This document shows, in pieces, positions 13,884 to 28,164 of a DNA stretch of 34,560 nucleotides. Numbering within the stretch: position 1 is the first letter of the stretch; each line of letters opens with the position of its first letter. The position numbers and the translations under genes are program-made. Below the pieces are notes generated by a model. The model made no database searches. It had not been told where the DNA came from and saw only the letters and a program-made list of their open reading frames with translations. The DNA lies in the UHGV virus genome UHGV-0119120; one strand, given 5' to 3'. This stretch comes from a virus.

Positions 13884-14366
13884 TTAAATCTTCCAGGAGA
13901 TTTCTGCATTGCCGTTAGCGTCACCGGCCCCTGTGAATTCGGCGTTGGTCAGCGCCACGTTTTTGCCACTGACGGACGTGGACATGAAGCCGCCCAGCGG
14001 CACTTTGATGGATTCATCAGTGGAGACGACAACGTATACCGGGTCGCCTTTTTTGATGGTGCTGGCATCAAAATCAGAACCGAGATTAACGGTCATGTAG
14101 CCACGCTTCATGGCGTCACCCGGGAAGTTCTTATCCGTCCCCACCTGGCGAACCATGTCTGGCTGCGATGTGGTCGGATACGGACGAACGTAGATCCCCT
14201 TCACCTTGTCGGCGGTGTCACCGTCCGCCAGCGGCACGAAAAAGCCGTCAGCGTCATATTTGCCAGCCAGACCATAGGCAGCGAAGGCGTTAGCGGATTT
14301 AAGGATCACCGGTTCGACGGTTAAGTCCTGCGGGCGAGAGATAGCCCCGGCAATGCCAACAGGCAT
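13884..14366 (-). CDS. head structural protein (DUF2190-like)
   Basis: 160 aa ORF immediately upstream of the capsid gene; first morphogenesis gene after the island. Confidence 0.5.
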   Translation of the reverse strand: MPVGIAGAISRPQDLTVEPVILKSANAFAAYGLAGKYDADGFFVPLADGDTADKVKGIYVRPYPTTSQPDMVRQVGTDKNFPGDAMKRGYMTVNLGSDFDASTIKKGDPVYVVVSTDESIKVPLGGFMSTSVSGKNVALTNAEFTGAGDANGNAEISWKI

Positions 14367-14507
14367 CCGGTACAGGAATGCAAGGCTATTATTTAATCAC
14401 CTGAAATATAAGGATTTATTTGCAGTCTGATTTTGCGTGTAGTCCAAAAACTGCTCTGTGATGTATGGCGCTGAATGGGGTAAGTTACTCAATACCAGAT
14501 GTGACAT

Positions 14508-14756
14508 TTAGCGGCACATCATCCGGTAGCGCTCACCTGACGTTCTGGGATCCTCGAATTTTGATTCTAACTGGTGTACTGGCGGAGAATAGCAACCGCT
14601 GGAAACCATATTGGCGATATCTGCCGGGCTGCGGGGGTCGTCATACAGCATAATTAACGCTTCTGCGATTTCTTTGGTGCTAGCCTCCACGCTTAAAGGT
14701 TTAGTCTTAGCCATGACTTTCTCCAGTGCGATGATGCGTTTTATCCGTTCATTCAT
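14508..14756 (-). CDS. hypothetical small protein
   Basis: 82 aa ORF; its ATG overlaps the stop of the DUF5681-like gene (ATGAATGA). Confidence 0.35.
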   Translation of the reverse strand: MNERIKRIIALEKVMAKTKPLSVEASTKEIAEALIMLYDDPRSPADIANMVSSGCYSPPVHQLESKFEDPRTSGERYRMMCR

Positions 14757-15183
14757 TATGTTCTCCTTCCAGACGGGCTATGCGTTCTTCTAGCTCAGTT
14801 ATTTCAATGACTTTCATCATGCTGGCTAGCCCATCAAGTATAACCTTACCTTGATCTGCTGATAACGTCCCAGCGGCTATAGCTTTCATCACCGAACGGG
14901 CCAGCGACTGTGGGTCTGAGTCATCGAGATCAAAGGGCGTTGGAGGCAATATTGGTTTGCTTGGCGGGACAATGCGATCGAGGATGATTCTGCACGCTGC
15001 CATATCGCCTTTTCTGGCTTTTTTTAGAATGGCATCCGCTGCATCCTCCGCCCCCTCCGCCAGAAGGTTACGCAATTCAGTAGCTGTTTTTGGTCTACCT
15101 CCGGGATTCCCGCTATTCCCCTTAGCAAACTGGCCGCGCTTATTCCGTGTTACCTGTTTTTGCCTGTTCTCAGGTGCTGCCAT
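14749..15183 (-). CDS. DUF5681-like phage protein
   Basis: 144 aa; N-terminal KRGQFAKGNSGNPGGRPK motif characteristic of DUF5681; coiled-coil C-terminus. Confidence 0.5.
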   Translation of the reverse strand: MAAPENRQKQVTRNKRGQFAKGNSGNPGGRPKTATELRNLLAEGAEDAADAILKKARKGDMAACRIILDRIVPPSKPILPPTPFDLDDSDPQSLARSVMKAIAAGTLSADQGKVILDGLASMMKVIEITELEERIARLEGEHNE

Positions 15184-15228
15184 TATTAATCACCTTCAAT
15201 AAGTTACAGATCCTCTCATGGGTAGCTA

Positions 15229-15801
15229 TCACTCTCTCTCCAGATCCTCAAGAGAGCAGCAAATATGCTGTGTTGAAACAAAATAGCTCAGCATGCTGCT
15301 TACCTTGTTTGACGCGACGTAATTATAATGCTCGACCATCTTTGCTAACGCGATAATCTCCCACCAGTAATGCTTAACTAGCTTTAGCGAAATTAAATAA
15401 GCCCGGCTATAGAGCTTGTCGCAATCATCTCCTGTTGCGCCTTGGTTCCTGTATTGCTCAAGCACTTTCCGAATATCGCTGGCGTCTCCTTTCCCTCCAT
15501 TTTCCAGTAGTTTTTCAGGTGGTTCGCCTGAGTAAAGGTGTTGTGCCATTACGCCAGAAAAAGAGACGACCATCTGCGCCAGTTCATCTTTTCTGACGGG
15601 GAGATGTGAGCATACCGCCCGGCAATTATCGACCTCTTTGCCGTTAGCCAGTCGAGCAATACGAAACTCATCAGCAATAGATATCTCAATTTGCCTAGCA
15701 CCCGTAAACCACGCAGCCATCGCGTGACCGGCTTCATGGATCGCGATATTTCTGTCCCACATAGGGCTTTTGCTGAATTCAACAATTACGCCATCACTCA
15801 C
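15229..15801 (-). CDS. standalone zinc-metalloprotease domain protein, FtsH (peptidase M41)-like, no AAA+ module
   Basis: 190 aa; AIHEAGHAMAAW matches the FtsH catalytic HEAGHA zinc-binding motif; downstream KDELAQMVVSFSGVMAQHLYSG and GDASDIRKV parallel the FtsH SRQKLESQISTLYGGRLAEEIIYG and ASNDIKVAT segments. No Walker motifs. Confidence 0.5.
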   Translation of the reverse strand: MSDGVIVEFSKSPMWDRNIAIHEAGHAMAAWFTGARQIEISIADEFRIARLANGKEVDNCRAVCSHLPVRKDELAQMVVSFSGVMAQHLYSGEPPEKLLENGGKGDASDIRKVLEQYRNQGATGDDCDKLYSRAYLISLKLVKHYWWEIIALAKMVEHYNYVASNKVSSMLSYFVSTQHICCSLEDLERE

Positions 15802-15863
15802 GCTGCTTACTCTCCGTTAGATCTGTCATTTAGTTAAATTTAACTGCGTTGGGGGAGTCTCCA

Positions 15864-16040
15864 TCACACACTCCCTTCAACGGCCATTGATTCCAGCGCC
15901 TTAGCCACCAGCCCACGTGCAATTTGGTGGATAGACGGCGCTACGCCAATATCGGAGCGCTGGCGTTCGCGCTCCTGGATCTTGCAGATTGCGGCGAACT
16001 GGTCGCCAGAGAGTAATACCGGCTTAACGTTTGGCTTTTT
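15864..16040 (-). CDS. hypothetical small basic protein (possible DNA-binding)
   Basis: Likely start MKKPNVKPVLLSGDQ inside the 95 aa track ORF; overlaps the stop of the upstream 64 aa ORF. Confidence 0.3.
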   Translation of the reverse strand, partial: KKPNVKPVLLSGDQFAAICKIQERERQRSDIGVAPSIHQIARGLVAKALESMAVEGSV

Positions 16041-16218
16041 CATCCTGTTCACTCCAGAACTTTGCATTCGCTTCGTTGACTTTTTCCAGATTGCGGCATT
16101 CGTTGTTGAAGTTGTTACGCATCCGCAATTGCTCGGCCTGTTCACGGCCAAAGAGTTTACGCCCGGCGCTTTGCGGGTTTCCTGCTGCTAATTTTGGGTC
16201 ATAAATAGCCATGCTCAT
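16024..16218 (-). CDS. hypothetical small protein
   Basis: 64 aa ORF packed between the 187 aa gene and the next small ORF. Confidence 0.3.
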   Translation of the reverse strand: MSMAIYDPKLAAGNPQSAGRKLFGREQAEQLRMRNNFNNECRNLEKVNEANAKFWSEQDEKAKR

Positions 16219-16224
16219 TGCTCC

Positions 16225-16788
16225 TTACTTCGTGCGATGCCAGAAACTGGCGTTGTCGGTGTTAATGCTGCGAATGGCGTCGCCTGTGGAGAGAATCTTC
16301 GGTGAAACGTTGTTAACTCGCATGTAGTCGCCAACCTGCTCCAGAACGTCGATAGCCTGATCAAGCTGAATCTCTGATAGCGGGGTCGGATGTACCGCAC
16401 TGAATGCCTCAGCGGGTGCGTAACGCAGCACATCAAGCGCAACAAGGCGAGGATCGGTATCAGGAAGGGCATTGTCATACTTTGGCGCTACAGCGCGTAC
16501 CAGGCGCATAAATTCAGCGTCCATTGACGTTGGCGCGGTGGAGGTCGTGGAAGCGCCGCTGCCACTGCGAGTAATCATGTCACTATCGCGGGTGTACATC
16601 CGACGCAGGCGGTCGCCAGTTGCAATGCGTGTTGCACGTTCCTGCTTAAGCGTCGTTGCAAGATTCGCAATGACGAGAGCCACAGGAAGCGAGCAGGTCA
16701 GCCTTTCGAACGTATCATCGGAGTAAGTCACCTCGACGGTACCACCAGCGTTATCACTTTCCAGATTAACATTGGTTATCTGTTTCAT
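16225..16788 (-). CDS. hypothetical protein, first gene of the island accessory module
   Basis: 187 aa ORF with AAGG RBS; preceded by a palindromic operator-like region. Confidence 0.45.
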   Translation of the reverse strand: MKQITNVNLESDNAGGTVEVTYSDDTFERLTCSLPVALVIANLATTLKQERATRIATGDRLRRMYTRDSDMITRSGSGASTTSTAPTSMDAEFMRLVRAVAPKYDNALPDTDPRLVALDVLRYAPAEAFSAVHPTPLSEIQLDQAIDVLEQVGDYMRVNNVSPKILSTGDAIRSINTDNASFWHRTK

Positions 16789-16823
16789 TGTTCATAACCT
16801 TTTGCGTTGTTTAAATTCTAATC

Positions 16824-16840
16824 ATTGCATAAATTGCAAT
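16824..16840. promoter_or_regulatory. perfect 17-bp palindrome ATTGCATAAATTGCAAT (candidate operator)
   Basis: Read directly; lies about 40-60 bp upstream of the 187 aa gene start, with a related half-site ATCATTGCG at 16851-16859. Confidence 0.35.
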
Positions 16841-16938
16841 GTTAGTAAATATCATTGCGTATATTGAAATGATAAATCGACGTGATACTATGACGGTGAT
16901 CCACCATTGTGTGATTGCATAAACATGGTTAACAAAAG

Positions 16939-16973
16939 CCCTCGCCTCTCCAGCGCGGGCTTTTTCTTTTCCG
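16939..16973. terminator. hairpin with flanking T/A runs (candidate bidirectional terminator between origin and accessory operon)
   Basis: AGCCCTCGC-CTCTCCA-GCGCGGGCT stem-loop (8/9 bp) followed by TTTTTCTTTT on the plus strand and preceded by AAAA. Confidence 0.4.
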
Positions 16974-17072
16974 CTCCGCAAAGTTGCCGTTTCCGCATAC
17001 TGTCGCTTAGGCGATGCCCCTCCAAATTCGTAATTACTCTCCGAAAAAAACTCTATAGATAAACAAAAACAT

Positions 17073-17365
17073 GTTGGTTCAGTTGGTTCAGTTGGTTCAA
17101 TTTGTAAAGATTGTTGTTTTATAAGGATTATTTCTTTCGGAGTGAACCAACAAAGCCCCATTTTGAACCAACAAACGCTATTTTCGTGTTGGTTCAGTGG
17201 GAAAGATTTACAGGCCAGCCAGAAAAGGGCGTTGGTTCAATAGCGGCATTTGTTGGTTCAAAATGGGGCTTTGTTGGTTCGGTGTTGGTTCACTTACAAG
17301 CATGTAAATGCATTAAATACATACACTTATATTAATTAAATAGTTACTGAACCAACTGAACCAAC
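17073..17365. repeat. iteron array, putative origin of replication
   Basis: At least 11 copies of GTTGGTTCA / TGAACCAAC, including three tandem copies at 17073-17099. A 29-bp perfect inverted repeat GAACCAACAAAGCCCCATTTTGAACCAAC sits at 17145-17173 and 17252-17280, with an AT-rich stretch at about 17300-17345. Directly downstream of the primase-helicase stop. Confidence 0.6.
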
Positions 17366-17390
17366 AAAAAAACATCTCGTATGTGTGTTT

Positions 17391-20171
17391 TTATTCTTCA
17401 CCCTCTATCTCGTCGGGTCGTAGCTGGAGCACATAAACGTTTATCTGGCGTCCATCAATTCGCGGGGATTTACGCTGATACCCCCTTCCGCTGGCTGGCG
17501 GTTTCAGCACCCCAGCCCCGGCCAGCACACGGGCAAACTGTTTCGCGTTGAATCCCTTCGCAATCTCACCTTCGAATGCTGCCGGGAACGTGTAGAACAC
17601 TATCGGATCAGCATCATGCGCCCCTTTCTGACGGTACCCGGCCAAATCCCGAATCGGCATGTCAGCCGGGTCATAAGGGTAAGGTGCAAATCGGCTCAGT
17701 CCGTATGCATTAAGAAACGCCTCTGCCTGCTCGATGATCTGCTTATGCTCACGGTTCCCCGTGCCAAACTCTTTCACCCAGGCGTTAAAGCCATGCTGGA
17801 TGGCGTCCCGGCTTTCCTGCTCCCCCCAGCCAGTGACAGGCATCCCCAGCACCAGCGCCGCCTCCAGAATAGCGAACCGCTCGCCTACACGATGAACCTG
17901 TTCGCCATAATCAGCAGGGATAAGACTACGCCAGCGCTCCTGCGCCGCTTTGACAGCTTGTTTTGCCTCCTGCTGGTGGCCTGCAAGCCATTTAATCCAT
18001 TCACGGCCTGCGGCTCCGTGGTTCGTCTGGTAAGCCTCTTTGAGTGCGTCGGCGTGTTGCTTCCCGTTCTGGTACTCATGGTGCGTTACTGATTTCTCCA
18101 TCGGTAAATTAAGCAATCGCACCAGTTGCCCGGCCTTAACTTTCAGCCCACCAGCAGAAAGAAACGTCTCAATGTCCATTTCCCCGGTACTGATCGCCAC
18201 GGTGCGCCAGCGCTTTAACTCACGGTTGCCGCCCTCCTTGGCCCCCTGTAGCTTTCCGGCACCGTTAAACAGCGTGTAAGCAGACGTAGCAACGTCTTTG
18301 GCGCTACTGCCCTGCCCCACTTCATCCAGCGGTAACAGGCTGTCGTTATGCGCTTCCGCTTCGTTGGCGATACCCAGCGCTGTACCGTACCAGGTAAGGC
18401 GCAAGGCATCCGGTTCACCGTATAAACTGCTGGCAATGTTGGCGGTGGTTGTCTTCCCTGCGCTGGACTGCTCGAAAAGATGCACGCCGAACCCGTCAGC
18501 GCCAACAAGCCCGATCAGCGGCGCAGAAAGCGCAGCAGCAACACCCAGCATCATTGACGGGTTTCCCAGCGCAAGACGCGCCACCGAATCACGCCAGCTT
18601 TCCGGCGTTCCACTGACGGTATAGCCACCAGCCGCCGCACTCCGACCACTGAATAACAGCGGTATCTCTGGCTCACCAATAACATCACCATCCGGCATGA
18701 TGTACGCCCCGTTGTGCCAGCCTGTGGTGTGGCTGATCTGCCATTCCTTGCCGCTACCAGTTCGCTGCAGCCAGTCGGCCAGAATTGCCCGCAACGATGG
18801 TTTGGTTGTCACACTGACACCGCCGTTTTTCAGCGTGCGCCATCCCTCACGGTCGCCAATGTCCTCCCATGGAAGCGCACGGGTAACTTGCCCCCGGTTG
18901 CCGGGGACGTCCCAACGCAGGATCAGAAAGCGCTGTCTGGCGTTATCACTCCCCGCACCAGCAATCTCCAGCGGAGAGCATAGCCACGCCTCGGTATTGA
19001 TAATTTCTCCTGTGTCTTTGTCCACTTTCGGGGTGATCCAGTGAATGCCATCCGCACGGCTCTCTACTCGCGGTTTCAGATCGTCGTCGATACCAAGTTT
19101 TTTCTTGCCGCCGTCGATAGCTGTCAGTGTCGCACCCACTTTCTTACCCTCCGGTTGATACATTGAGTCGTTAAATGCTGCTGTGGCCGCTTCGAGGCCG
19201 TATTGCTGGTGGTAGTCGTTCCAGTCCGCTTTATAGTCCACTGGTGGCATGGAAACCCAGCCAGAAACGGCTTTCGCGGCTTTCTCTGCGGCCTCCTTGC
19301 CAGTGTTAACTTTCACTCCTTTAATTCCGTCACTTTCGCCCATCTGGTCGTTATCTGCGGCAATGATGATTTGTGCCTGTGGGTACTTCCGGCGCATCAC
19401 TTCGGCAACGGGTAGCAGGTTGCCCGCGTCAATTGCTGCCACTGCCAGCGCGTCCGGGCGCATCAGGTGAACTGAAAGGGCCGTCGCCAGCCCCTCGGCA
19501 ATTAAAACGCTCTGCGGCGATTCTGGCGCGTTTACGGCATGATATGCCCCGCGCTTTGCTGAACCTGTCAGGAGTCGCTTCTCTCCCTGCGGTGTAATGG
19601 TTTGCGCTGCTGCCACTGCGCCGGATTCGTCCACCAGCTCCAGCAATAACGAACCATCAGGCATAACCGGATAGTTAAACCCGGTCAGCCCTTTTGATTG
19701 CAGGTAATCAGATTCGCCCTGTGTGGCACTCTGGCGCATTCCGGCATACAGACGGGCAAACGTAGCCCTTCGCTGCTCTGCGTCCCCTGCTGCCTGTTTC
19801 TGGCGCTCCTGCTCACGCTGCTGGCGGTCAGCTTCCAGTTGCTCCCTTCTATGGCTCGCTGCCACCGGGTCGGATTGCGCTGCCAGGTAATCAATACCCA
19901 GCACGTCAGCGGCAAGCTGTGCCGCCTCCGTAGTGTCGCAGTTGTTAACCCGCTTGATTAAATCCAGCCCGTCACCAGCGCCACACTGGTTGCAGATAAA
20001 GCTACCGCGCCCGTTGTCGTCGAATCTGAAACGGTCTTTTCCACCACATGCAGGGCATGGAGAATGGCGGCGCGATGAATCAGGCACGTCGATAGACAAC
20101 CCAGCCAGCACATAAGGCCAGCGCCCTGCTGCGGCGCTGGTCACTTCGCGGATAAGGTCGATATTACGCAT
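17391..20171 (-). CDS. primase-helicase (zinc ribbon + Toprim primase + P-loop NTPase)
   Basis: Likely start MRNIDLI with AGGAGG RBS. N-terminal CPACGGKDRFRF...CNQCG zinc ribbon; Toprim-like acidic motifs (LIAEGLATA, IIIAADNDQMGE); Walker A-like SSAGKTT. Confidence 0.8.
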   Translation of the reverse strand: MRNIDLIREVTSAAAGRWPYVLAGLSIDVPDSSRRHSPCPACGGKDRFRFDDNGRGSFICNQCGAGDGLDLIKRVNNCDTTEAAQLAADVLGIDYLAAQSDPVAASHRREQLEADRQQREQERQKQAAGDAEQRRATFARLYAGMRQSATQGESDYLQSKGLTGFNYPVMPDGSLLLELVDESGAVAAAQTITPQGEKRLLTGSAKRGAYHAVNAPESPQSVLIAEGLATALSVHLMRPDALAVAAIDAGNLLPVAEVMRRKYPQAQIIIAADNDQMGESDGIKGVKVNTGKEAAEKAAKAVSGWVSMPPVDYKADWNDYHQQYGLEAATAAFNDSMYQPEGKKVGATLTAIDGGKKKLGIDDDLKPRVESRADGIHWITPKVDKDTGEIINTEAWLCSPLEIAGAGSDNARQRFLILRWDVPGNRGQVTRALPWEDIGDREGWRTLKNGGVSVTTKPSLRAILADWLQRTGSGKEWQISHTTGWHNGAYIMPDGDVIGEPEIPLLFSGRSAAAGGYTVSGTPESWRDSVARLALGNPSMMLGVAAALSAPLIGLVGADGFGVHLFEQSSAGKTTTANIASSLYGEPDALRLTWYGTALGIANEAEAHNDSLLPLDEVGQGSSAKDVATSAYTLFNGAGKLQGAKEGGNRELKRWRTVAISTGEMDIETFLSAGGLKVKAGQLVRLLNLPMEKSVTHHEYQNGKQHADALKEAYQTNHGAAGREWIKWLAGHQQEAKQAVKAAQERWRSLIPADYGEQVHRVGERFAILEAALVLGMPVTGWGEQESRDAIQHGFNAWVKEFGTGNREHKQIIEQAEAFLNAYGLSRFAPYPYDPADMPIRDLAGYRQKGAHDADPIVFYTFPAAFEGEIAKGFNAKQFARVLAGAGVLKPPASGRGYQRKSPRIDGRQINVYVLQLRPDEIEGEE

Positions 20172-20505
20172 GGTTGCCTCCTGCCACGGTCGCGCCCATA
20201 TCATTAATCATGCTTTGCCATATCTCGCGCCCGACGTCAGTCAATCCGTCCTTAGTGACGCAACGATCAAGAAGCTCGATCCCCACGGTTTCCCACTGCG
20301 GGTAGAACACTTTCATGGCTGCCAGTGTGTAGCTATCGATCAGGCTGCGAACGCCTTTTACTCCATTGACGATTTCCACACGGACGGCGAGGCCGTCCGC
20401 ATCAACCATGAAATAGTCCCCGCCGCTGGTGGCGGTAATGTGGTTATACAGTGCCGACGCATACTTATTCGCCAGCGCATTCAGTCGGAAATTTTTAGTA
20501 ATCAT
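20164..20505 (-). CDS. hypothetical protein (replication operon)
   Basis: 113 aa ORF; stop overlaps the primase start (ATGCGTAA). Confidence 0.4.
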   Translation of the reverse strand: MITKNFRLNALANKYASALYNHITATSGGDYFMVDADGLAVRVEIVNGVKGVRSLIDSYTLAAMKVFYPQWETVGIELLDRCVTKDGLTDVGREIWQSMINDMGATVAGGNHA

Positions 20506-20514
20506 GTCGCCCCC

Positions 20515-21141
20515 TCAGTGCGCCAGCGGCATTTCAGGCCAGCCGTTTTCATCCAGTTCAGCTATAAAGCTGTTGTGAAGTTCAGCAAGCGTTTCACGCC
20601 CGAACGGGGTCAGCTCGCCGCGCTCCGTGTCGATCATGGCCTGATAAAAAACAATGGCGTTCGCTGTTCCCTGCTCAACGCCGTAGCGCTCAATCATTGC
20701 GCCCTCGATGTTGTTCGCCATCGCCAGCCGTTCAGCAAACGGGTAAACCACCATGCCCGCATTACCATTGGAGTAAATCGCCACCTGCGATGATGTGCCG
20801 TCAGCCTCAGTAACCGTGGTGGTGCCGTTCTCGCGCTTCATCTCAGAAACGAACGTCGCAGCAATCAGCCAGCGCCACATAGTGACGTTATGCTGCGCGG
20901 TGAAGTCGAACCAGCCACGCTCCCCGCCGTCAGCCACTGCCAAATGCAGGGCAAATCCTTCATCGGTCTTATTGTCATACTCACCCGCATCCAGACGTAC
21001 TACGACTTTTTCGTAGTTGATAAGAGCAACATGCTCATACATTCCGGCATCATTGCGGGTCATGATATTGACGCCGTGCGGTGTGGCTTCGGCGTGGAAC
21101 AGGTCGGGATTTCCCGGTTTAATGGTCAGTATATTGCTCAT
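20515..21141 (-). CDS. hypothetical protein (replication operon)
   Basis: 208 aa ORF, tightly packed in the operon. Confidence 0.45.
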   Translation of the reverse strand: MSNILTIKPGNPDLFHAEATPHGVNIMTRNDAGMYEHVALINYEKVVVRLDAGEYDNKTDEGFALHLAVADGGERGWFDFTAQHNVTMWRWLIAATFVSEMKRENGTTTVTEADGTSSQVAIYSNGNAGMVVYPFAERLAMANNIEGAMIERYGVEQGTANAIVFYQAMIDTERGELTPFGRETLAELHNSFIAELDENGWPEMPLAH

Positions 21142-21359
21142 GCTTTGCCCTCCCGATATTCACGCATTACATGGTCAGCTAGCTTGCTTTCAGCCTCGCT
21201 CATTGCTTCGGGCACACCGTGTAACAGCGTCAGAATGGAACCTATAAGGCGTGGTAAATCGGGATCTGTTTTATTGGTGGTGCTCTCCAGCCACATGGAC
21301 AAAACAGCCTGTGCCTGTTCAATCTGGCAGGCAGCATCAATCAGTTGTAACTGGCTCAT
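21138..21359 (-). CDS. hypothetical small protein
   Basis: 73 aa ORF with 4-nt overlaps to neighbours. Confidence 0.35.
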   Translation of the reverse strand: MSQLQLIDAACQIEQAQAVLSMWLESTTNKTDPDLPRLIGSILTLLHGVPEAMSEAESKLADHVMREYREGKA

Positions 21360-21619
21360 GCGCTGCCCTCCGCATCAATTCTGGCTATATCGACAATCGT
21401 CAGGACTTTACTAAGCCAGCAATACGCGATGGCTGCTTGCTCAACTTCGAGGAGTGGTAATAAATCGGTCATAACGTGAGCCAGCCCATTGCGGGCGCGG
21501 GTCATGCGTTCTGCGGTACGCTCTGCCAGCGTGAAAGAGTCAGGGTACGGCTGTTCGCGGGATAGCATCGCCTCGGCCTCAAGATCTGCAGGATGGCGAT
21601 AGATGGTATGAATGTTCAC
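21356..21619 (-). CDS. hypothetical small protein
   Basis: 87 aa ORF with GTG start, overlapping neighbours. Confidence 0.35.
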   Translation of the reverse strand: MNIHTIYRHPADLEAEAMLSREQPYPDSFTLAERTAERMTRARNGLAHVMTDLLPLLEVEQAAIAYCWLSKVLTIVDIARIDAEGSA

Positions 21620-21795
21620 GCTGCCACCTCCTGAATACGAGTAATACGAACGTGCTTATAACCGCCTTTATTCGCCAGTAGTTGCGCAGTCGATTTAGCT
21701 GTTTCTGGACTGGTGCTAGTCATGGTGTAGTGAATGCCGACGGTGTTACCGCGCTTGTTAACAGCGTATCCGTCGATCTGGAAGGTTTTACGCAT
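21616..21795 (-). CDS. hypothetical small protein (59 aa, below ORF-track cutoff)
   Basis: ATG overlaps the stop of the recombinase gene (AATGCGTAA); translation MRKTFQIDGYAVNKRGNTVGIHYTMTSTSPETAKSTAQLLANKGGYKHVRITRIQEVAA. Confidence 0.3.
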   Translation of the reverse strand: MRKTFQIDGYAVNKRGNTVGIHYTMTSTSPETAKSTAQLLANKGGYKHVRITRIQEVAA

Positions 21796-22666
21796 TTCCG
21801 ACCTCCATTGCTAAACGGGACTGGATAGCTGCCGCTTTACTGCCTAATTGCAGGTAAGTACGAGTTATCGCAGGGTTGCTATGACCCAGCATTTCAGAGG
21901 CCACTAATAGGCCCTGTTCGCCACCTGCGGACATGAGGTTAAAGGCGGCTATTTTGCGGCTTGAGTAGGCGCTCAGGCGCAATTTAGCGTTAATGAAACG
22001 GGTAAACCACGCCATGACGCCATGAAGTTTGCGCCAGATGGTTTGGCGAGTAACGCTACCTTCCAGACGTTGACAACGGTTACTTTCGATTTGAGAGCGG
22101 GAAAATACCAGGTCGTCCTCCACCAGATTCCGATCCTGACGGTCACGCAGCCGCTTGATAATGCCGGGGGGTAACTGTTTGGTGTCGTGCTTGACGTCAG
22201 CCTTAGCCACCAGCCCGAACACAATCGCCTGTTCTTCGTCGTTCATATCGGCGGCCAGTTCATCACAGCCGATACTATCCCACTTCATGTAGGCGATATG
22301 GTCAGCGGCGAGCCGCGCGGCGTCCTTGCGCTGCTGGCGCACAATTTCAATACCTTTGCGGGTTGCCCGCGCTTCTGCGGCTTTGGTCTGTTTGGAAACG
22401 ATAATTGTCGCCTGTCCAGTTTCCCAATTGATGCAGGAATAGCGCAGGTTGCAAACGTCGCTGGTACGCCAGCCGGTTACGGTCGCAATATCCCACCAGA
22501 GCAACACCCAATCGGGCTGTGTCTGCTGGATGCGCTCGCGTAGCTTGCGCTGCTCGTCACGGTCATAGACAGGGGTCATGGTGCGACTGCCCTTTGTGCT
22601 CGCCGCTTTAACGACATTGCCGCGCAGCTCGCGGGCTTTGGCTGTCAGAGTCTGGAGGTTAAACAT
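21788..22666 (-). CDS. tyrosine recombinase / integrase-like protein (second recombinase)
   Basis: Likely start MFNLQTL at 22666; C-terminal LGHSNPAITRTYLQ resembles the His...Tyr catalytic end of tyrosine recombinases; candidate box I Arg in TGWRTSDV. Confidence 0.55.
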   Translation of the reverse strand: MFNLQTLTAKARELRGNVVKAASTKGSRTMTPVYDRDEQRKLRERIQQTQPDWVLLWWDIATVTGWRTSDVCNLRYSCINWETGQATIIVSKQTKAAEARATRKGIEIVRQQRKDAARLAADHIAYMKWDSIGCDELAADMNDEEQAIVFGLVAKADVKHDTKQLPPGIIKRLRDRQDRNLVEDDLVFSRSQIESNRCQRLEGSVTRQTIWRKLHGVMAWFTRFINAKLRLSAYSSRKIAAFNLMSAGGEQGLLVASEMLGHSNPAITRTYLQLGSKAAAIQSRLAMEVGNA

Positions 22667-22847
22667 GACGCACCTCCGGCACTGGCAGACGTGCGGCCAG
22701 AGACAAAATAAAGTGCGGCGCAAGGATGCGGCGGGCTTCGCGTTCGGTCGCAGCCTCAACGGACAGACGGCAAGGTTTGGCTTTTTTATCGTGGCGATTC
22801 AGCGCGAGAAAGCGCCAGGTGAATTTTGAGTGTGCGGATCTAGCCAT
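22659..22847 (-). CDS. small protein upstream of the recombinase (possibly Icd-like)
   Basis: 62 aa ORF; stop overlaps the recombinase ATG (CATGTTTAA); ends ...FILSLAARLPVPE. Family assignment is from memory only. Confidence 0.3.
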   Translation of the reverse strand: MARSAHSKFTWRFLALNRHDKKAKPCRLSVEAATEREARRILAPHFILSLAARLPVPEVRHV

Positions 22848-23167
22848 TTTTAGCGGCTCCTAGAACATATTGAAGGAGTCTCGCCAGATGCTGCTAAACA
22901 TGGGTGGCGAGACGTGACGGGGTTAGCAGACTGGCGTTCTAGGAAACCAGCAGGCGTTAAGCCTCCCCACCACGCCCCGCCATAAATCGGGGGTATGGTT
23001 GGTTTTCGGGCGTAAAAATACCGCTATACGGAAATCAGCGGCTACCCGCTAGAACGTTCAGGCTGCTAAACCCGGCACCCGTTTTGTGAGGTGCGAAATA
23101 ATCATAACCACACTACCCCGTTAAGCGCAAGGGAAATATCCCCTGCGCCCACAATGCAAACTTGTTA

Positions 23168-24238
23168 TTAGTACCCGCGAGAAGCGTAAACTCGTGCCAT
23201 GCCAGCCCAATGAGAGAAAAGAATTTCCCACTTAATTGGGTTGTAGGTAATACTTCCATCGACTGCGGCAGCATTCCATGCCCGATCAGAAATAGAGCTA
23301 TCTTTAGCAGTTTTCCCCCATTCAACAATATCCCTTGCTAAAGCCTGTACACATGCTCGACTGACTACCTTTTCGTCAACGTACGCCCCAACATCAGAGC
23401 ATGACTCCATACTCATGTTCAGGCTATTTTTAAGGGACTCCAGCCCGGCCACTGACATAAAGCGACGACCATTAGCGTATGCAACACCGTCATTCCTGAT
23501 AGTGAACTTAACAGTGTGGAATGCGTCAACAATCATCCGCTGCTCTGGCGTCGGGTTCTGCCATAGCACAAGGTTAATCTCTCTCTCAGAAGCTATTGAT
23601 TCTGCTTTCTCACGCTTAACTCGTGCATCCCGTTCTGCCTGGTATTGTTTTTGATTTTCATCATGAGCCTTTTGGTAACTAGAGGCTAATGCGTCTCTGT
23701 TTTTGGCAAATGCTGCAATGCTATTTTTGAAATCGCTTCTGCTAACCTTGTTTAACCCCATACTCCAGCGGTCATTTTCGTAATCATCATAAATGGCATC
23801 AACTTTTGCCGGATTACTCAGCACAGTCGCCAGATTAACCGGAATTTTAGCCATCTCGTCACTGATTCTCGCTACATGTTCGAAAGTCGATATAGAGCCA
23901 ACTTCATGACTCCCATACTCATGATAAGCGGCATAAAAAATTGGAATAGATTGAGGTTTTTCGTTCACTGACTTAATGATGCTTTTTTCATCACATGACT
24001 GTTCACCCCATTTGAAAACACTTTTCCCACCATTTTTGTATGTGTTGCAATCATCAATACCCAAACGAACCAGCGCATCCCATCCGGGCCGTTTCTTGTA
24101 ATCCTCGCTCTTGACAACATGCATTGTGGTTAGGGCTTTCGCAGGATCTAACTTGCCAGCGGTACAAGACACGATAGGAAAGGCCAGAGAAGCGCAGGCT
24201 GCTATCCTGAAAAGGCTCGTCAATCTTTCTTTTTTCAT
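23168..24238 (-). CDS. lipoprotein, unknown function (island cargo)
   Basis: 356 aa; N-terminal MKKERLTSLFRIAACASLAFPIVSC has a lipobox (IVSC); central Lys/Glu-rich coiled-coil segment; gene is visibly more AT-rich than its flanks. Confidence 0.55.
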   Translation of the reverse strand: MKKERLTSLFRIAACASLAFPIVSCTAGKLDPAKALTTMHVVKSEDYKKRPGWDALVRLGIDDCNTYKNGGKSVFKWGEQSCDEKSIIKSVNEKPQSIPIFYAAYHEYGSHEVGSISTFEHVARISDEMAKIPVNLATVLSNPAKVDAIYDDYENDRWSMGLNKVSRSDFKNSIAAFAKNRDALASSYQKAHDENQKQYQAERDARVKREKAESIASEREINLVLWQNPTPEQRMIVDAFHTVKFTIRNDGVAYANGRRFMSVAGLESLKNSLNMSMESCSDVGAYVDEKVVSRACVQALARDIVEWGKTAKDSSISDRAWNAAAVDGSITYNPIKWEILFSHWAGMARVYASRGY

Positions 24239-24402
24239 CGTCCTAATGCTCTTTCAAACCAAGAATGTAGGACATAGTAAATTGTGGTTAATGGCAAGTC
24301 GATATAAAGGCCGGGTTATTGGCTTCGGTGCCAATATCATTTCTCCGAAATTTCATAACGCCTGTAATCGCTCGTTTCCCCATCTTGGGGACATTTCAAA
24401 AC

Positions 24403-24523
24403 TGCGAATCAAAGTGCGAATGGAACTGCGAATTCGCAAAGAGAGAGCGCCGCTCAAAGCAGGCCGGATAAGGCTTCGCGGACATATTGCGAATGCGAAT
24501 CCACCAGAAACGAAACGCGAATC
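24403..24523. repeat. cluster of TGCGAAT heptamer repeats (candidate operator array)
   Basis: TGCGAAT at 24403, 24415 and 24427 (12-bp phasing), the third within the palindrome TGCGAATTCGCA; further copies at 24488, 24495 (GCGAAT) and 24517 (CGCGAAT). Lies 165-285 bp upstream of the lipoprotein gene. Confidence 0.4.
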
Positions 24524-25079
24524 ACCCATAAACAAAACCGATACGCAGGGAGCGTACTGCCCGTATTCAATCGGCCGAAAAGTCAGCCGATTAAAATCAT
24601 GCCCGGCTATCCCCTGAAATTTCAGGAGATCGAGAGCCACCAGCAGAGAACCGTTCATGCCATCGGTAACTTGCAGCCCGAAGCTCAAATCTGAGCGTTG
24701 ACCGCCAGCCAGAAGAAACCATTTTAAATCCCGCGCCTTCTCTTTGGATGAACAGGGTTACTCCCCGTAATGCTGTGAACTGCCACGATGATTCGGGGTT
24801 GTGTTGCGCTGGCCTTTGAGTCCCGCACAAACACTGACCCACAAAATTTTTGTAGGTGACTGGCCCTCTTGATGAGGTGCTGTTTTGCGTAACCCTTAAT
24901 GAGTTGTGCAAAGGCTCAACCCTTTAAAAGGGTTGCCTAACCACCGGCGATAGTAATAACCGCCAACCTATGAACACTATGAACACCTTTGAGCATTTTT
25001 CTATAAACATTCCACTACTGCCCTATTTGATGCCTTTCTCTGGCTGGCCTGTGTAAGTTACCGTTGCTGGGAACTGACA

Positions 25080-25115
25080 ATAAAAAAGGCTTGCCCCTCT
25101 CAGGTAACAAGCCTT
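25080..25115 (-). terminator. rho-independent terminator downstream of the AlpA-like gene
   Basis: Minus-strand hairpin AAGGCTTG-(14 nt)-CAAGCCTT followed by TTTTTT, about 20 nt after the stop at 25133. Confidence 0.5.
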
Positions 25116-25132
25116 GTCTATCGCTCTGGATC

Positions 25133-25345
25133 TCACTCACTACAGATTCCGCGCTTTTGGCTCTGTCTTCCGATCCACGCCTCCACCTCATCGCGATACC
25201 AGCAATTGCGGCCGCCAACTTTGAAGGGCATCGGAAAGCCGTTCCCCTCATCCTTCAGAAATTCATAGAACGCAGAATCAGAACGGTAGCGTAGACGGGC
25301 TTTAACTTCGACTTTGAGCAAAATATCACTGTTAGATATGGACAT
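25133..25345 (-). CDS. alpA: AlpA-family transcriptional regulator / excisionase-like protein
   Basis: 70 aa; ...GFPMPFKVGGRNCWYRDEVEAWI matches the AlpA helix-turn-helix pattern; GAGG RBS and two TATAAT-like elements upstream. Confidence 0.6.
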   Translation of the reverse strand: MSISNSDILLKVEVKARLRYRSDSAFYEFLKDEGNGFPMPFKVGGRNCWYRDEVEAWIGRQSQKRGICSE

Positions 25346-25400
25346 AAAAACCTCATTATATATTCGATATAATTATATATGATTTGAATAAAAAAAACGC
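25346..25400 (-). promoter_or_regulatory. AT-rich candidate promoter for the AlpA-like gene
   Basis: Minus strand shows TATAAT-like hexamers within 40 nt upstream of the start codon, between the integrase terminator and the gene. Confidence 0.3.
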
Positions 25401-25420
25401 ATTCCGGTTAGCTTTGGGCA

Positions 25421-25446
25421 TAAAAAAAGCTGGCTTAAAGCCAGCT
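25421..25446 (-). terminator. rho-independent terminator downstream of the P4-type integrase
   Basis: Perfect inverted repeat AGCTGGCTT-A-AAGCCAGCT followed on the minus strand by a run of 7 T. Confidence 0.55.
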
Positions 25447-25487
25447 ATACCCGTTTGAAATCATGATTATCCAGAAATGGATGTGCC

Positions 25488-26717
25488 TTACACAACCAGC
25501 CTCAAGCCCTTATCGCCGCTGGTCTCCAGTATTTCGCCACACTCTGCGGCCTCGATAAAGTCCCCCCACCATTGCATTAAAACCCGGCGTTTTTCCAGAT
25601 AGTCGCTACGGTTATAAACATTTCGAATCGCATCGGCGCTTTTGTGAGCGAGTGCAGCCTCAATCACATCAGGGTTGAACCCCTCGTCATTTAAAACTGT
25701 AGATGCCAACGCCCTGAACCCATGAGGAACAATCAGCCCTTTAAACGACGTTTTGTGTATCCCGGCCTGAGTCGCACAGCGTGAGATCGGCTTATTTTCT
25801 TTTCGCCATGAGGGGAAAACATAATCGCAGCGCTTCCACTTTTCGGCCTCTTTAAGCACGTTTATAGCCTGGCTCGATAATGGGACTACGTGGGGGCGCT
25901 TTCCTTTCATCCGGCTTGCAGGGATTTGCCAGATTGAGTTATCAAAATCAATCTCATTCCAGAGAGCGCCGCCAGCCTCCGAAGGCCGGACCATCGTAAT
26001 GATCTGAAATAATAATGCCAGCTTTGATGGCTCCCATAAGCTCAACTCGTTCCATGCGCTTAAAAATTCGGGCAACCGCTCTTTCTGTAAAGTCGCTCTT
26101 GGCTCGTTTTTTTCAGCCGGGAATGCTTTACCAATTTTCGATAGCGGGTTGTGCTCAATAACCCCAATGTTTACCGCATAATCCATTATGGCGTTGATGG
26201 TAATAACCATTTTCGTAAGCGTTGATGGCCTTTCCCTGAAAGGTTTAAAAGCCTGAATAGTATCGGCTGCGTTTATTTTATGTACCGTGGTATGCCTAAA
26301 AATCGTGGAAAGATGCTTCAACGTCACATTGTGCGATTCAAGCGTGTTGCTTCTCGCACCTTCTTTAATCTTGATTTTTAGCCATTCATCGGCAACGGCC
26401 TGAAATGACTGCGCGTACATTTTACGCTGTTCATTCCTGGCATCTTTTTTGACTTCGTTCGGATCTATCCCTCGCGCTACCATACGGCGCAGTTTCGAAC
26501 GTTCCTCCCTCGCTTCGGACAAAGTAAACTCCGGGTATCGTCCAATAGTATAGGTTTGTCTCTTCTTCGTTACCGGGTGTACATACCGAAAACGCCATGA
26601 CTTACCGCCCCGGCTTGTGATGTAAAGCAACAAACCGAAACCATCGTGCAAACTGAAATCCTTGCCCTGTGCCTTCGCGCTTTTCACTTCGACGCTAGTT
26701 AGTGGCCTAACAATCAT
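25488..26717 (-). CDS. int: P4-type tyrosine integrase
   Basis: 409 aa; N-terminal ...LHDGFGLLLYITSRGGKSWRFRY is the typical arm-binding (DUF4102-like) signature of P4-family integrases. Confidence 0.75.
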   Translation of the reverse strand: MIVRPLTSVEVKSAKAQGKDFSLHDGFGLLLYITSRGGKSWRFRYVHPVTKKRQTYTIGRYPEFTLSEAREERSKLRRMVARGIDPNEVKKDARNEQRKMYAQSFQAVADEWLKIKIKEGARSNTLESHNVTLKHLSTIFRHTTVHKINAADTIQAFKPFRERPSTLTKMVITINAIMDYAVNIGVIEHNPLSKIGKAFPAEKNEPRATLQKERLPEFLSAWNELSLWEPSKLALLFQIITMVRPSEAGGALWNEIDFDNSIWQIPASRMKGKRPHVVPLSSQAINVLKEAEKWKRCDYVFPSWRKENKPISRCATQAGIHKTSFKGLIVPHGFRALASTVLNDEGFNPDVIEAALAHKSADAIRNVYNRSDYLEKRRVLMQWWGDFIEAAECGEILETSGDKGLRLVV

Positions 26718-26931
26718 TCAACACCTCTCTGGCTACCATGTAATGCAAACGGCGCATGATTCTCTTTCTAGTCCCTCATGTACCGAATCAAAGCGAAATC
26801 CGGCGAATAAATCCGCACATGTTCGGAGTGTCATTTTTATGGTTCAGGCCAGTAACGCCGTATGATTCCGAACGATAACGCACTGATTAATAGATATTAG
26901 TTGCATAAGGTACAGATATGCAGTCATTGGA

Positions 26932-28164
26932 TTATCCTTTGCGGTTAGACCAGAAGTCGGCGTTTTGTTTGTTCAGGGAAGCGATGCTGGTCATGCCCAT
27001 ATTTGGACGTTGTGCATCGCCCGTGGTGCTGCGGGTGTTTCGCCCTTTGGCAATCTCAGACACGGCGTTAAACGCCATATCGACCGATTGCTTGGGCAAT
27101 TTGCGGATATCTGCATCACCGACAACCTGGCGAACCAGTGTTTTGTCAGCGGCGGACAGCACATCACGTTTGAACGCGGTCGGTTTCACCTTACGGCTCA
27201 GATCGATACCCGGAACGATAACTTCGGCACGATAAGCAGCGTCACCGGTAATCGTGGTTTCCTCTTCGTCGTCCTCACCGTCGCCGGTAGGGTCTTTGTT
27301 ATCTTTGCCGTCAGGCTTATCGTCGTTATCGCCCGTTGCAGTACCTTCCAGCTTAGCCAGCAGGGCTTTGAGCAAGGTTTTGATATCGTCCTCGCCGTCG
27401 CCGGTTGGCTCTCCGCCCATTTCCGGCTTTTTGTCCGGCAATGGTTGCTGCGGTGAAAGGTTAATGTTGAGGTTAACGCCGCTCGGCAGATCCCCTTCGT
27501 CACCCGTTACCGCCGCTGGCGCAGAGTCCAGCAGTTCGTTCATGGTGTCAGCGTCACCCGTTTTGATGGCCGTGCGCATGCGGGTCCACCAGCTTTTCTT
27601 TTGATTTGCCATTGTGTCTCTGTCTCCAATTGCACAACGATTTCCGGCTCTGCCTTTAGGGACAAGAGCCACATGGTTTCCGGTGATATCGACCTGCTCG
27701 GCTTTTCCGGGTTCGGTCTGCTCGTACTCAGCGTCATAGCCGCACGACACTTCGCGCAGACCATCTTCGATCAGCTGAATGGCGCTTTCGTCTTTGACGA
27801 TAAGGTCAGCCAGCATCCAATCAGACTGATCACCTGTCCCGCGCCGAACGTTCTGAAGATGCCCGACCGCAAGCTCTTTCCAGTTCTCGGGGTTGACCAG
27901 CCGCACATTCCCGTTTTCATCTTCAGGATGCAGGATCGTGATGCTCATCCCTTCGAATGAGGCGAGCGTGGCCGGATGGAATACCTGCTCAGGAGAACGC
28001 GTGACGACTATTTCACCGAACTTATCGGGTTTCAGTTTTGGCAGGTCATCAGCACCATAGAGCTGCTTACCTGTTCGTCCTATCGGCACGTCTTTGCACA
28101 GCAACGAGCCGTCAGCCAGCTGATAGCGGGTTTCCCCCAGCCGGGTATTGAAAAAATATTTCAT
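26932..28164 (-). CDS. head scaffold/protease-like protein (DUF2213-like)
   Basis: 410 aa with acidic repeat region (GDGEDD...GDGEDDEEE) typical of scaffolding; follows the minor head protein gene. Confidence 0.5.
   Translation of the reverse strand: MKYFFNTRLGETRYQLADGSLLCKDVPIGRTGKQLYGADDLPKLKPDKFGEIVVTRSPEQVFHPATLASFEGMSITILHPEDENGNVRLVNPENWKELAVGHLQNVRRGTGDQSDWMLADLIVKDESAIQLIEDGLREVSCGYDAEYEQTEPGKAEQVDITGNHVALVPKGRAGNRCAIGDRDTMANQKKSWWTRMRTAIKTGDADTMNELLDSAPAAVTGDEGDLPSGVNLNINLSPQQPLPDKKPEMGGEPTGDGEDDIKTLLKALLAKLEGTATGDNDDKPDGKDNKDPTGDGEDDEEETTITGDAAYRAEVIVPGIDLSRKVKPTAFKRDVLSAADKTLVRQVVGDADIRKLPKQSVDMAFNAVSEIAKGRNTRSTTGDAQRPNMGMTSIASLNKQNADFWSNRKG

What the first reader, a model, noticed from the sequence alone, without database searches (positions are those of the whole stretch)
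21616..22847. Second tyrosine recombinase embedded in a translationally coupled replication operon
Besides the P4-type integrase, a roughly 292 aa tyrosine recombinase-like gene sits inside a run of genes whose stops and starts overlap (small upstream ORF, recombinase, four small ORFs, two mid-sized ORFs, primase). Two recombinases in one small element suggest either a composite of two nested elements or a dedicated resolvase/invertase function tied to replication.
Basis: partly seen in the sequence, partly recalled or inferred. Interest (0 to 1): 0.5.

Follow-up and report, generated by a model that had tools for sequence, protein, structure and literature searches.

The report
Mini recombinase inside a phage satellite
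A small phage-parasite island carries, besides its normal integrase, a second stripped-down but apparently active DNA recombinase in its replication operon. It most likely tidies up the element's own circular DNA rather than inserting it into the chromosome, and its family has never been studied.

Summary

It is atypical. It has no N-terminal core-binding domain and carries a roughly 65-aa helical insert.

It sits in an overlapping-gene operon: C4/CI immunity RNA, Icd-like, recombinase, three (not four) small ORFs, two mid-sized ORFs, DUF927 primase.

The "two nested elements" reading fails. A single att pair (core GGTACAG) bounds one 12.5-kb island holding both recombinases. The whole island is a helper-embedded PICI, a known kind, inside a prophage head module.

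Sister islands pair this gene with unrelated integrases and unrelated replication proteins. Relatives without it join icd directly to the next ORF, so it is an accessory cassette.

Homologues are the only recombinase in small circular 5.5-13 kb replicons.

Best reading (about 0.45): a self-encoded monomerising or cyclising recombinase for the episomal form. No target site was found and no experiment exists.

The parts
26903..26922 (.). Island junction next to the integrase (att site, core GGTACAG), just downstream of the prophage DUF2213 gene
   Evidence: Three-way alignment with the uninterrupted attB of Citrobacter phage Omnitron
25488..26717 (-). Full-length P4-type integrase of the island (409 aa)
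   Evidence: PF13356 Arm-DNA-bind_3, PF22022 and PF00589. It is adjacent to the att site.
25133..25345 (-). AlpA/Xis-like small HTH protein (70 aa), the putative excisionase/regulator
   Evidence: Weak PF05930 hit (E 0.0065), weak NF033499 Xis hit, and its position next to int
23168..24238 (-). 356-aa ORF of unknown function (cargo)
   Evidence: No hit in Pfam, PHROGs, NCBIfam or PADLOC. Conserved in ABWA45 and ECONIH5.
23014..23094 (-). isrK/seqA-like target region of the immunity RNA (below threshold)
   Evidence: Rfam RF01394, 44.6 bits against a gathering score of 50, E 4.6e-7. Above gathering in sister loci L017, L019 and L024.
22900..22987 (-). C4/CI-type antisense immunity RNA heading the operon
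   Evidence: Rfam RF01695, 75 bits against a gathering score of 45
22659..22847 (-). Icd-like ORF (62 aa); its stop overlaps the recombinase start by 8 nt
   Evidence: NF033153 phage_ICD_like, E 1.2e-22; sequence
21788..22666 (-). The finding itself: a 292-aa tyrosine recombinase made of the catalytic domain only, with a helical insert (residues about 95-205)
21616..21795 (-). 59-aa ORF, overlapping the recombinase stop by 8 nt
   Evidence: In recombinase-less sister islands its homologue follows icd directly.
21356..21619 (-). 87-aa ORF (GTG start, 4-nt overlap)
   Evidence: conserved in sister islands
21138..21359 (-). 73-aa ORF (4-nt overlap)
   Evidence: phrog_20558
20515..21141 (-). 208-aa ORF of unknown function
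   Evidence: phrog_1515, E 8e-50
20164..20505 (-). 113-aa ORF of unknown function
   Evidence: phrog_37628, E 7e-49
17391..20204 (-). Primase/helicase (Zn-ribbon, Toprim, DUF927). The likely start is the ATG at 20171, overlapping the previous stop by 8 nt.
   Evidence: the RefSeq start in ABWA45
17070..17370 (.). Iteron cluster (GTTGGTTCA in direct and inverted copies) downstream of the primase; the presumed origin of replication
   Evidence: the repeat finder D1, I1, I2, I5, I13 and I19. The origin assignment is inferred from position.
14749..16788 (-). Late zone of the island: 187-aa ORF (16225-16788), 190-aa ORF (15229-15801) and a DUF5681 protein (14749-15183)
   Evidence: PF18932 DUF5681, E 7e-11. 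DUF5681 homologues occur in the small capsid-encoding plasmids.
14363..14382 (.). Distal island junction (att site, core GGTACAG) at the start codon of the prophage cement-protein gene
   Evidence: Homology to phage Omnitron stops at 14382; alignment

Best explanation
The gene encodes a functional, catalytically competent member of an uncharacterised clade of mini tyrosine recombinases. Members are 263-306 aa, consist of the catalytic domain with no core-binding domain, and carry a basic helical insert between the beta-hairpin lysine and the H/YxxR helix.

It is an accessory cassette placed between icd and the next ORF of the early/replication operon of a PICI-type phage satellite. It is translationally coupled to icd and controlled by the C4/CI immunity RNA. 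It would therefore be made only when the element is derepressed or has just entered a cell, together with the primase.

Its most likely job is site-specific recombination on the element's own episomal DNA. That means reducing replication multimers, or injected headful concatemers, to circular monomers, as Cre/lox does for P1 and Xer/cer does for plasmids. Chromosomal or prophage integration and excision are left to the full-length P4-type integrase with AlpA.

Shown: gene, fold, active site, purifying selection, operon position, and distribution. Inferred: catalysis, timing of expression, and the substrate and purpose of the reaction.
For: Enzyme:
- PF00589 scores above cut-off.
- R67, K92, R237 and Y271 are invariant, and D70 and H/W262 nearly so, across 38 sequences down to 17% identity. 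The His-I position is Y in this subclade and H in the others.
- dN/dS is 0.03-0.10.

Not the integrase:
- A single att pair bounds the island.
- 10 of 11 chromosomal sister loci and the E. coli islands each have a separate full-length integrase next to the att site or tRNA. These integrases are 22-99% identical to this one, while the mini recombinase stays 84-99% identical.

Accessory cassette:
- Only 21 of 5426 E. coli genomes carry the gene, against 689 with related island DNA.
- Recombinase-less islands join icd directly to o59 with the same ATGnnTAA overlap.

Episome link:
- It is the only PF00589 protein, and no serine recombinase was found, in five small circular replicons of 8.6-13.3 kb (5 of 51 ORFs, one per element).
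- It is present in repeatedly recovered circular 8,767-bp contigs.
- It is present in a 5,462-bp circular replicon beside a ParA-like gene and in a 13.3-kb plasmid with ParA.
- It sits upstream of unrelated replication proteins: DUF927, DUF5906, VirE+Toprim, lambda-O-like and phrog_4756. This argues for a replicon-general function.

Regulation: C4 RNA and Icd lie directly upstream here and in L017, L019 and L024.
Against: - No cognate site was identified. No noncoding k-mer (10-13 nt) is shared among 12 islands with 84-99% identical proteins, and only the gene itself is conserved at DNA level.
- Short inverted repeats near the gene differ from element to element.
- Canonical tyrosine recombinases need a core-binding domain to clamp DNA. 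This protein lacks one, so it may need a partner or act differently.
- Most related islands manage without it.
- For a satellite packaged from concatemers, resolution during late replication could be counter-productive.
- There are no experimental data, and I found no paper on this family in the searchable library.
Confidence: 0.45

Rival explanations
1. It is an alternative or secondary integrase. It would insert the episome into a second target (chromosome, helper phage or another replicon). In the small circular relatives it would be their only means of integration.
For: It belongs to the integrase superfamily and has an intact active site. It is the sole recombinase of the small circular elements. 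PHROGs places it with integrases (phrog_216).
Against: The small elements were recovered only as element-sized circular contigs or plasmids: 29 of 30 index blocks hold contigs of 5-10 kb, and two elements carry ParA. None was seen integrated in the genome scan. In islands the att-proximal full-length integrase accounts for integration. The protein has no arm-binding or core-binding domain.
Confidence: 0.15
2. It is a DNA-binding regulator or antirepressor that merely keeps a recombinase fold, like MrpR/SroF of SPbeta-type phages. It occupies the slot that Ant holds downstream of c4-icd in phage P1.
Confidence: 0.12
3. It acts on the helper phage or on host DNA. Examples would be rearranging, cleaving or excising helper DNA to favour the satellite, or a defence or counter-defence role.
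For: The protein is far more conserved than the elements carrying it, and no conserved site exists within them. This would fit a target that lies outside the element. It is an optional cassette in a region rich in satellite-helper interaction genes (PMC10111431).
Against: No PADLOC hit. Carriers have different helpers and integration sites (tRNA-Thr islands, prophage-embedded islands, plasmids), so there is no obvious common target. A ParA plasmid of 5.5 kb has no evident helper context.
Confidence: 0.1
4. It is a replication-coupled nicking, topoisomerase-like or hairpin-forming (telomere-resolvase-like) enzyme rather than a strand-exchange recombinase.
Confidence: 0.08
5. Two recombinases are present because two mobile elements are nested or fused, and the mini recombinase is the remnant integrase of the inner one.
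For: The gene behaves as a mobile cassette: only it is conserved at DNA level between islands. The replication module shares genes (DUF5681, a small ORF mislabelled 'ubiquinol-cytochrome C reductase') with small capsid-encoding plasmids.
Against: There is one att pair only. Both junctions of the cassette are precise, in-operon ATGnnTAA overlaps. There are no flanking repeats. The gene is intact and under strong purifying selection. The same compact architecture recurs in many genera.
Confidence: 0.03

Closest known systems
Gram-negative PICIs and helper-embedded PICIs (Tommasini, Mageeney & Williams 2023, PMC10111431)
   Same: The whole island fits their scheme. It has an integration zone (int and alpA), an immunity zone with C4/isrK RNAs, a replication zone (primase plus origin) and a late zone. 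It is integrated co-oriented inside the late region of a lambdoid-type helper prophage.
   Different: That paper does not mention a second recombinase in the replication zone (no occurrence of 'recombinase'). The mini recombinase is present in only a small minority of such islands.
Phage P1 immI operon (c4 RNA - icd - ant) and the satellite P4 left operon (CI RNA ... alpha primase)
   Same: A C4/CI antisense RNA is followed by an Icd-like ORF whose stop overlaps the next gene. As in P4, the operon ends in the primase (P4 description in PMC10111431).
   Different: The gene coupled to icd is a tyrosine recombinase rather than Ant or a P4 ORF. tblastn of the protein against 50,697 phage records found nothing. 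Psu and delta domains were not detected among the island ORFs scanned.
Cre/loxP of P1 and Xer/cer-type multimer resolution
   Same: This is the proposed working analogy. It is a self-encoded tyrosine recombinase on a replicon that exists as a circle. The catalytic domain resembles Xer, Cre and lambda Int most closely.
   Different: There is no core-binding domain and an extra helical insert. No lox/dif-like site was identified. NCBIfam Xer models score far below cut-off (17 against 220 bits).
FimB/FimE-type DNA invertases (about 200-aa minimal tyrosine recombinases)
   Same: Both are essentially the catalytic domain alone. The nearest outgroups of the family are 180-200-aa proteins with weak hits to the invertase models PRK09870 and PRK09871.
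   Different: The query itself does not hit those models. It has a roughly 65-aa insert. No invertible segment or orientation polymorphism was seen in 20 or more loci.
MrpR/YopR and SroF, recombinase-fold repressors of SPbeta-like phages
   Same: They share the tyrosine-recombinase fold and sit in a regulatory position on a mobile element.
   Different: Those proteins have a core-binding domain and have lost most catalytic residues (PMC10516654). This family is the reverse: no core-binding domain and the catalytic residues kept.

Membership tests
Tyrosine recombinase superfamily (PF00589) | Profile score above Pfam's gathering threshold | tested here: met
   43.1 bits against a cut-off of 27.1, E 4.9e-11, in two stretches split by the insert
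Tyrosine recombinase superfamily (PF00589) | Catalytic residues R, D/E, K, H, R, H/W and the Y nucleophile | tested here: met
   R67, D70, K92, R237, H262 and Y271 are present. R, K, R and Y are invariant in 38 sequences. The His-I position is Y234 in this subclade and H in distant members. H262 varies between H and W. The residue list is taken from PMC10516654.
Tyrosine recombinase superfamily (PF00589) | Catalytic-domain fold | tested here: met
Tyrosine recombinase superfamily (PF00589) | N-terminal core-binding domain forming a clamp with the catalytic domain | tested here: not met
   Only about 30 residues (one helix and a disordered stretch) precede the catalytic domain. Full-length family members are 263-306 aa with matches starting at residues 2-30.
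Tyrosine recombinase superfamily (PF00589) | Cognate site with inverted half-sites around a 6-8 bp spacer | tested here: inconclusive
   No conserved noncoding site among 12 islands. Inverted repeats near the gene are specific to each element.
Tyrosine recombinase superfamily (PF00589) | Recombination through a 3'-phosphotyrosine intermediate | not testable with these tools
   Needs biochemistry or genetics
Helper-embedded / Gram-negative PICI (the island) | int plus alpA, immunity RNA zone, primase with origin, and late zone, all co-oriented | tested here: met
   The zone scheme is from PMC10111431.
Helper-embedded / Gram-negative PICI (the island) | Integration within the late region of a prophage, with an attB recognisable in uninterrupted phages | tested here: met
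   Core GGTACAG between the DUF2213 and cement-protein genes. Uninterrupted in phage Omnitron. The same insertion is seen in E. coli ABWA45, ECONIH5 and Apirhabdus.
P4-like satellites sensu stricto (Moura de Sousa & Rocha, PMC8628076) | Psu, delta and Sid hijacking genes | tested here: not met
   No PF07455 or PF04606 hit among the island ORFs scanned. Sid has no public profile, so it was not tested.
Xer recombinases | Score above the NCBIfam equivalog cut-off | tested here: not met
   NF040815 XerA scores 17.4 bits against a cut-off of 220
FimB/FimE-type invertases | Match to invertase models and an adjacent invertible segment flanked by inverted repeats | tested here: not met
   The query has no hit. 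Gene order and orientation are constant in all loci.
Telomere resolvases (ResT, TelA, TelK) | Resolvase-type catalytic domain with flanking domains, on a linear hairpin-ended replicon | tested here: not met

The most novel reading that the evidence does not exclude
The family may be a new functional class of self-sufficient tyrosine recombinase in which a basic helical insert replaces the missing core-binding domain. It would have been recruited by phage satellites and by small capsid-encoding plasmid-like satellites as a replicon-independent 'monomeriser'. In that reading it converts injected or replicated concatemers into single circles without RecA. Alternatively, it recombines a target outside the element, in the helper or host. 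Either case would add a recombinase-based step to the satellite life cycle and provide a very small recombinase scaffold.
Probability: 0.2. Interest if true: 0.65.

Novelty: new variant of a known kind. Interest (0 to 1): 0.45.

Why it matters
Phage satellites are described as needing four functions: integration, regulation, replication and hijacking. This gene would add a fifth, optional one: a second recombinase expressed with the replication genes.

If it monomerises episomal DNA, it would explain how small satellites packaged as concatemers, or living as plasmids, establish themselves. It would also supply a 290-aa tyrosine recombinase that works without a core-binding domain, which is of interest for enzymology and as a compact tool.

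The homologues also point to small circular, capsid-gene-bearing replicons in Enterobacterales. These look like extrachromosomal satellites, whereas one review-type statement holds that all known satellites are chromosomally integrated (PMC10085698).

Functionally nothing is proven. The gene is already annotated generically as a recombinase in RefSeq.

Tried and rejected
1. Target-site search. I looked for 13-, 11- and 10-mers shared outside the gene among 12 islands. Only Chi-like GCTGGTGG words and coding-sequence matches turned up.
2. blastn of the island against all loci. Only the recombinase gene is shared, plus a short GTGTTCATA-repeat piece (window 24964-25012) and a 290-bp segment (24386-24672) that sits at different positions in L015 and L016. 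Neither is general.
3. A 23-nt direct repeat inside the recombinase gene and o208 (21988-22010 and 20729-20751). It is confined to this island, and one copy is simply conserved coding sequence. I rejected it as chance.
4. Inverted repeats with short spacers near the gene in the window and in small replicons. No common architecture emerged.
5. A 33-nt imperfect inverted repeat flanking C4-icd-recombinase (21803-21835 and 23265-23297) as a possible invertible segment. It is at chance level and no orientation variants exist.
7. Defence-system membership. No PADLOC hit.
8. The 'Ash-recombinase' fusions of 450-499 aa (P0001 and others). These are gene-call artefacts that read through the C4 RNA and icd region in the recombinase frame.
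9. Literature. I found no paper on this protein family.
Full report
**The observation**

On the minus strand, the ORF at window 21788-22666 begins at ATG (MFNLQ...) and encodes 292 aa. The longer 323-aa reading from a TTG at 22759 is only the mechanical ORF.

The protein scores 43.1 bits on Pfam PF00589 against a cut-off of 27.1. The match falls in two stretches separated by an insert. It also matches PHROG integrase families. The identical gene in E. coli ABWA45 is annotated by RefSeq as a tyrosine-type recombinase/integrase.

The surrounding genes form a tightly packed operon. The junctions are:
- Icd-like (22659-22847) to recombinase: 8-nt overlap
- recombinase to the 59-aa ORF: 8 nt
- 59-aa to 87-aa ORF: 4 nt
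- 87-aa to 73-aa ORF: 4 nt
- 73-aa to 208-aa ORF: 4 nt
- 208-aa to 113-aa ORF: a 9-nt gap containing a G-rich ribosome-binding site
- 113-aa ORF to primase: 8 nt, using the ATG at 20171

There are three. Otherwise the description is accurate, including the P4-type integrase at 25488-26717 and the Zn-ribbon/Toprim/DUF927 primase.

**What the protein is**

An alignment of 21 homologues down to 36% identity shows an invariant TGWRTxD (R67, D70), KQT (K92), LSAYSxRK (Y234, R237, K238), GHS (H262) and Y271.

A profile search of 1.8 billion representative proteins found 91 clusters with E <= 1e-10. Full-length members are 263-306 aa, and their matches begin within the first 2-30 residues.

A 38-sequence alignment reaching 17% identity keeps R67, K92, R237 and Y271 invariant. 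The position equivalent to the first histidine of HxxR is Tyr in this subclade and His in the more distant ones. H262 alternates with Trp, the usual variation. The spacings R-K (25), R-H (25) and H-Y (9) are those of canonical enzymes. K-to-YxxR is 142 residues instead of about 70-90. From memory, lambda Int has 73 and Cre has 88.

The AlphaFold model (pLDDT 83.8) shows one N-terminal helix, a disordered linker, and the catalytic domain interrupted by a long basic helix and three shorter ones. A C-terminal helix follows the nucleophile.

There is no core-binding domain. Pairwise dN/dS against 11 homologues is 0.03-0.10, with dS up to saturation. The gene is therefore real, strongly constrained, and keeps a complete active site.

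**The element it sits in**

The operon is headed by a C4/CI-type antisense RNA (RF01695, 75 bits, 22900-22987). Upstream of that is an isrK/seqA-like target just below threshold. The Icd-like ORF follows (NF033153). This is the immunity architecture of P1 immI and of the P4 left operon.

Downstream of the primase lies an iteron cluster (GTTGGTTCA, 17070-17370), which is the presumed origin. A late zone follows and includes a DUF5681 protein.

The island is bounded by GCATnnGGTACAGnnATGCA-type sites at 26903-26922 and 14363-14382. Aligning both junctions with Citrobacter phage Omnitron reconstructs an uninterrupted attB with a GGTACAG crossover core. That attB lies between the phage's DUF2213 and cement-protein genes.

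The 12.5-kb island is therefore one unit, integrated inside the head module of a prophage. This is a helper-embedded PICI as described by Tommasini, Mageeney and Williams (PMC10111431). The same insertion occurs in E. coli ABWA45, in ECONIH5 and in Apirhabdus apintestini.

**One or two recombinases in relatives**

In 10 of 11 chromosomal loci from other genera, the mini recombinase (84-99% identical) lies 2-7 kb from a separate full-length integrase. That integrase is only 22-43% identical to the one here in all but one locus. At least two annotated E. coli islands of this type sit at tRNA-Thr next to proA.

At DNA level only the recombinase gene itself is shared between most of these islands. 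The partnered replication proteins are of unrelated kinds: DUF927, 'DNA primase family', DUF5906, VirE+Toprim, lambda-O-like and phrog_4756.

The gene is present in 21 of 5426 complete E. coli genomes. Parts of the island, including the small ORFs and the primase, occur in 689. In recombinase-less islands the Icd-like ORF overlaps the 59-aa ORF directly, with the same ATGnnTAA junction.

The recombinase is thus an optional cassette inserted precisely between icd and the next ORF. It is not a relic of a second nested element.

**Small circular replicons**

tblastn against plasmids, together with look-ups of distant homologues, found the family as the only PF00589 protein in small circular replicons. 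It accounts for 5 of 51 ORFs, one per element, and no serine recombinase was found. The replicons are:
- Citrobacter pRHBSTW-00021_2, 8,580 bp (74% identity)
- A Moellerella plasmid, 8,725 bp
- Klebsiella plasmids, 8,712 bp
- A Shigella plasmid, 13,291 bp, with ParA
- An Erwinia contig, 10.5 kb
- Circular metagenomic contigs of exactly 8,767 bp recovered in many samples in different permutations
- A 5,462-bp circle carrying a ParA-like gene, the recombinase and a replication protein

Several of these encode a Gp13-like major capsid protein, DUF5681 and tail proteins. None was seen integrated.

**Mechanism**

The data fit best an enzyme that acts on the element's own circular DNA, whatever its replication system. 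It would be made together with the replication proteins when C4 repression is absent. Its likely role is to reduce multimers or injected concatemers to monomers, as Cre/lox does for P1 or Xer/cer for plasmids.

This is inference. I could not find a cognate site. The missing core-binding domain is unexplained, although the basic insert may substitute for it. Most sister islands lack the gene.

Rivals:
- A secondary integrase. The sole-recombinase status in small elements favours it. Their strictly episomal recovery and the ParA genes argue against it.
- A recombinase-fold regulator in the Ant slot. MrpR and SroF are precedents, but MrpR has lost most catalytic residues (PMC10516654), whereas this family keeps them all.
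- An enzyme aimed at helper or host DNA. This would explain the absence of a conserved site within the elements. There is no PADLOC hit and no common helper.
- A nicking or telomere-resolvase-like role. YxxR is shared with ResT and TelA (PMC11317167). The fold scores and the circular replicons speak against it.

**Comparison, novelty and verdict**

The island is an ordinary member of a described class (HE-PICI / Gram-negative PICI). The recombinase is a clear superfamily member by profile, fold and active site. It fails the core-binding-domain criterion and matches no curated subfamily: Xer scores 17 bits against a 220-bit cut-off, and there is no hit to the invertase models.

I found no description of this family, or of a second recombinase in PICI replication operons, in the searchable literature.

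I rate it a new variant of a known kind, of moderate interest. The architecture and distribution are unusual and testable, but the function is unproven.

Noticed in passing
window 14363-26922 (junctions at 14363-14382 and 26903-26922): The whole 12.5-kb satellite is inserted inside a prophage head module, between the DUF2213 gene (26932-28164) and the cement-protein gene (13884-14366). The crossover core is GGTACAG, and the uninterrupted attB is seen in Citrobacter phage Omnitron. This matches the published helper-embedded PICI class (PMC10111431).
   Followed up: yes
L011, L012, L013, L014, L027, L006-L010, L036/L037 (whole loci): Small circular non-mobilizable replicons (5.5-13.3 kb) in Enterobacterales and in metagenomes. 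They carry a major capsid gene (Gp13-like), DUF5681, tail genes, an Arc/RHH repressor, a replication protein and the mini recombinase, but no integrase. They look like extrachromosomal phage satellites, whereas satellites are usually described as chromosomally integrated.
   Followed up: partly
L039 (NZ_CP110875.1, Enterobacter kobei p4_SCLZS19, 1-34300): This 34.3-kb 'plasmid' record is a head-to-tail tetramer of the 8.58-kb capsid-encoding element (unit spacing about 8,581 bp), with frameshifted copies. It is either a real multimer or concatemer, or a long-read assembly artefact.
   Followed up: partly
window 22660-23160 (-); proteins P0001, P0004, P0006, P0063: Many database 'Ash family' (PF10554) calls, and 450-499-aa 'Ash-recombinase' fusions, are ORFs read through the C4 RNA gene and across icd in another frame. 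They are probably gene-calling artefacts, not real proteins.
   Followed up: partly
window 17070-17370: A dense cluster of GTTGGTTCA iterons in direct and inverted orientation, including a 35-nt inverted pair at 97% identity, lies just downstream of the primase stop. It is the presumed origin of the satellite.
   Followed up: partly
window 24386-24672: A 290-bp noncoding segment has GATTCGC-type repeats and two near-palindromes (24566-24595 and 24609-24630). It is 88-91% conserved in L015 and L016. In L016 it lies after the origin instead of upstream of the immunity RNA. Its function is unknown; it could be a packaging site or a second cis-acting region.
   Followed up: no
L003 12542-17294: A metagenomic phage contig carrying a distant homologue has about five tandem copies of a gene pair (76 aa plus about 123 aa). 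The related contig L002 has only one copy.
   Followed up: no
L002 10981-11095: Directly downstream of the distant homologue's gene lie three copies of a unit containing the small palindrome CTGCCGAATAGGCAG, two of them in 42-nt tandem units. It is a candidate protein-binding array, possibly for the recombinase.
   Followed up: no
window 23168-24238 (-): A 356-aa ORF between alpA and the immunity RNA has no hit in Pfam, PHROGs, NCBIfam or PADLOC. It is conserved in two E. coli islands and sits where satellites often carry cargo or defence genes.
   Followed up: partly
L001 4419-5239 (E. coli ABWA45 prophage): A Doc/Phd toxin-antitoxin pair is annotated inside the tail/baseplate module of the helper prophage. 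Window ORFs 3646-4002 and 4084-4488 are in the equivalent place but were not checked.
   Followed up: no
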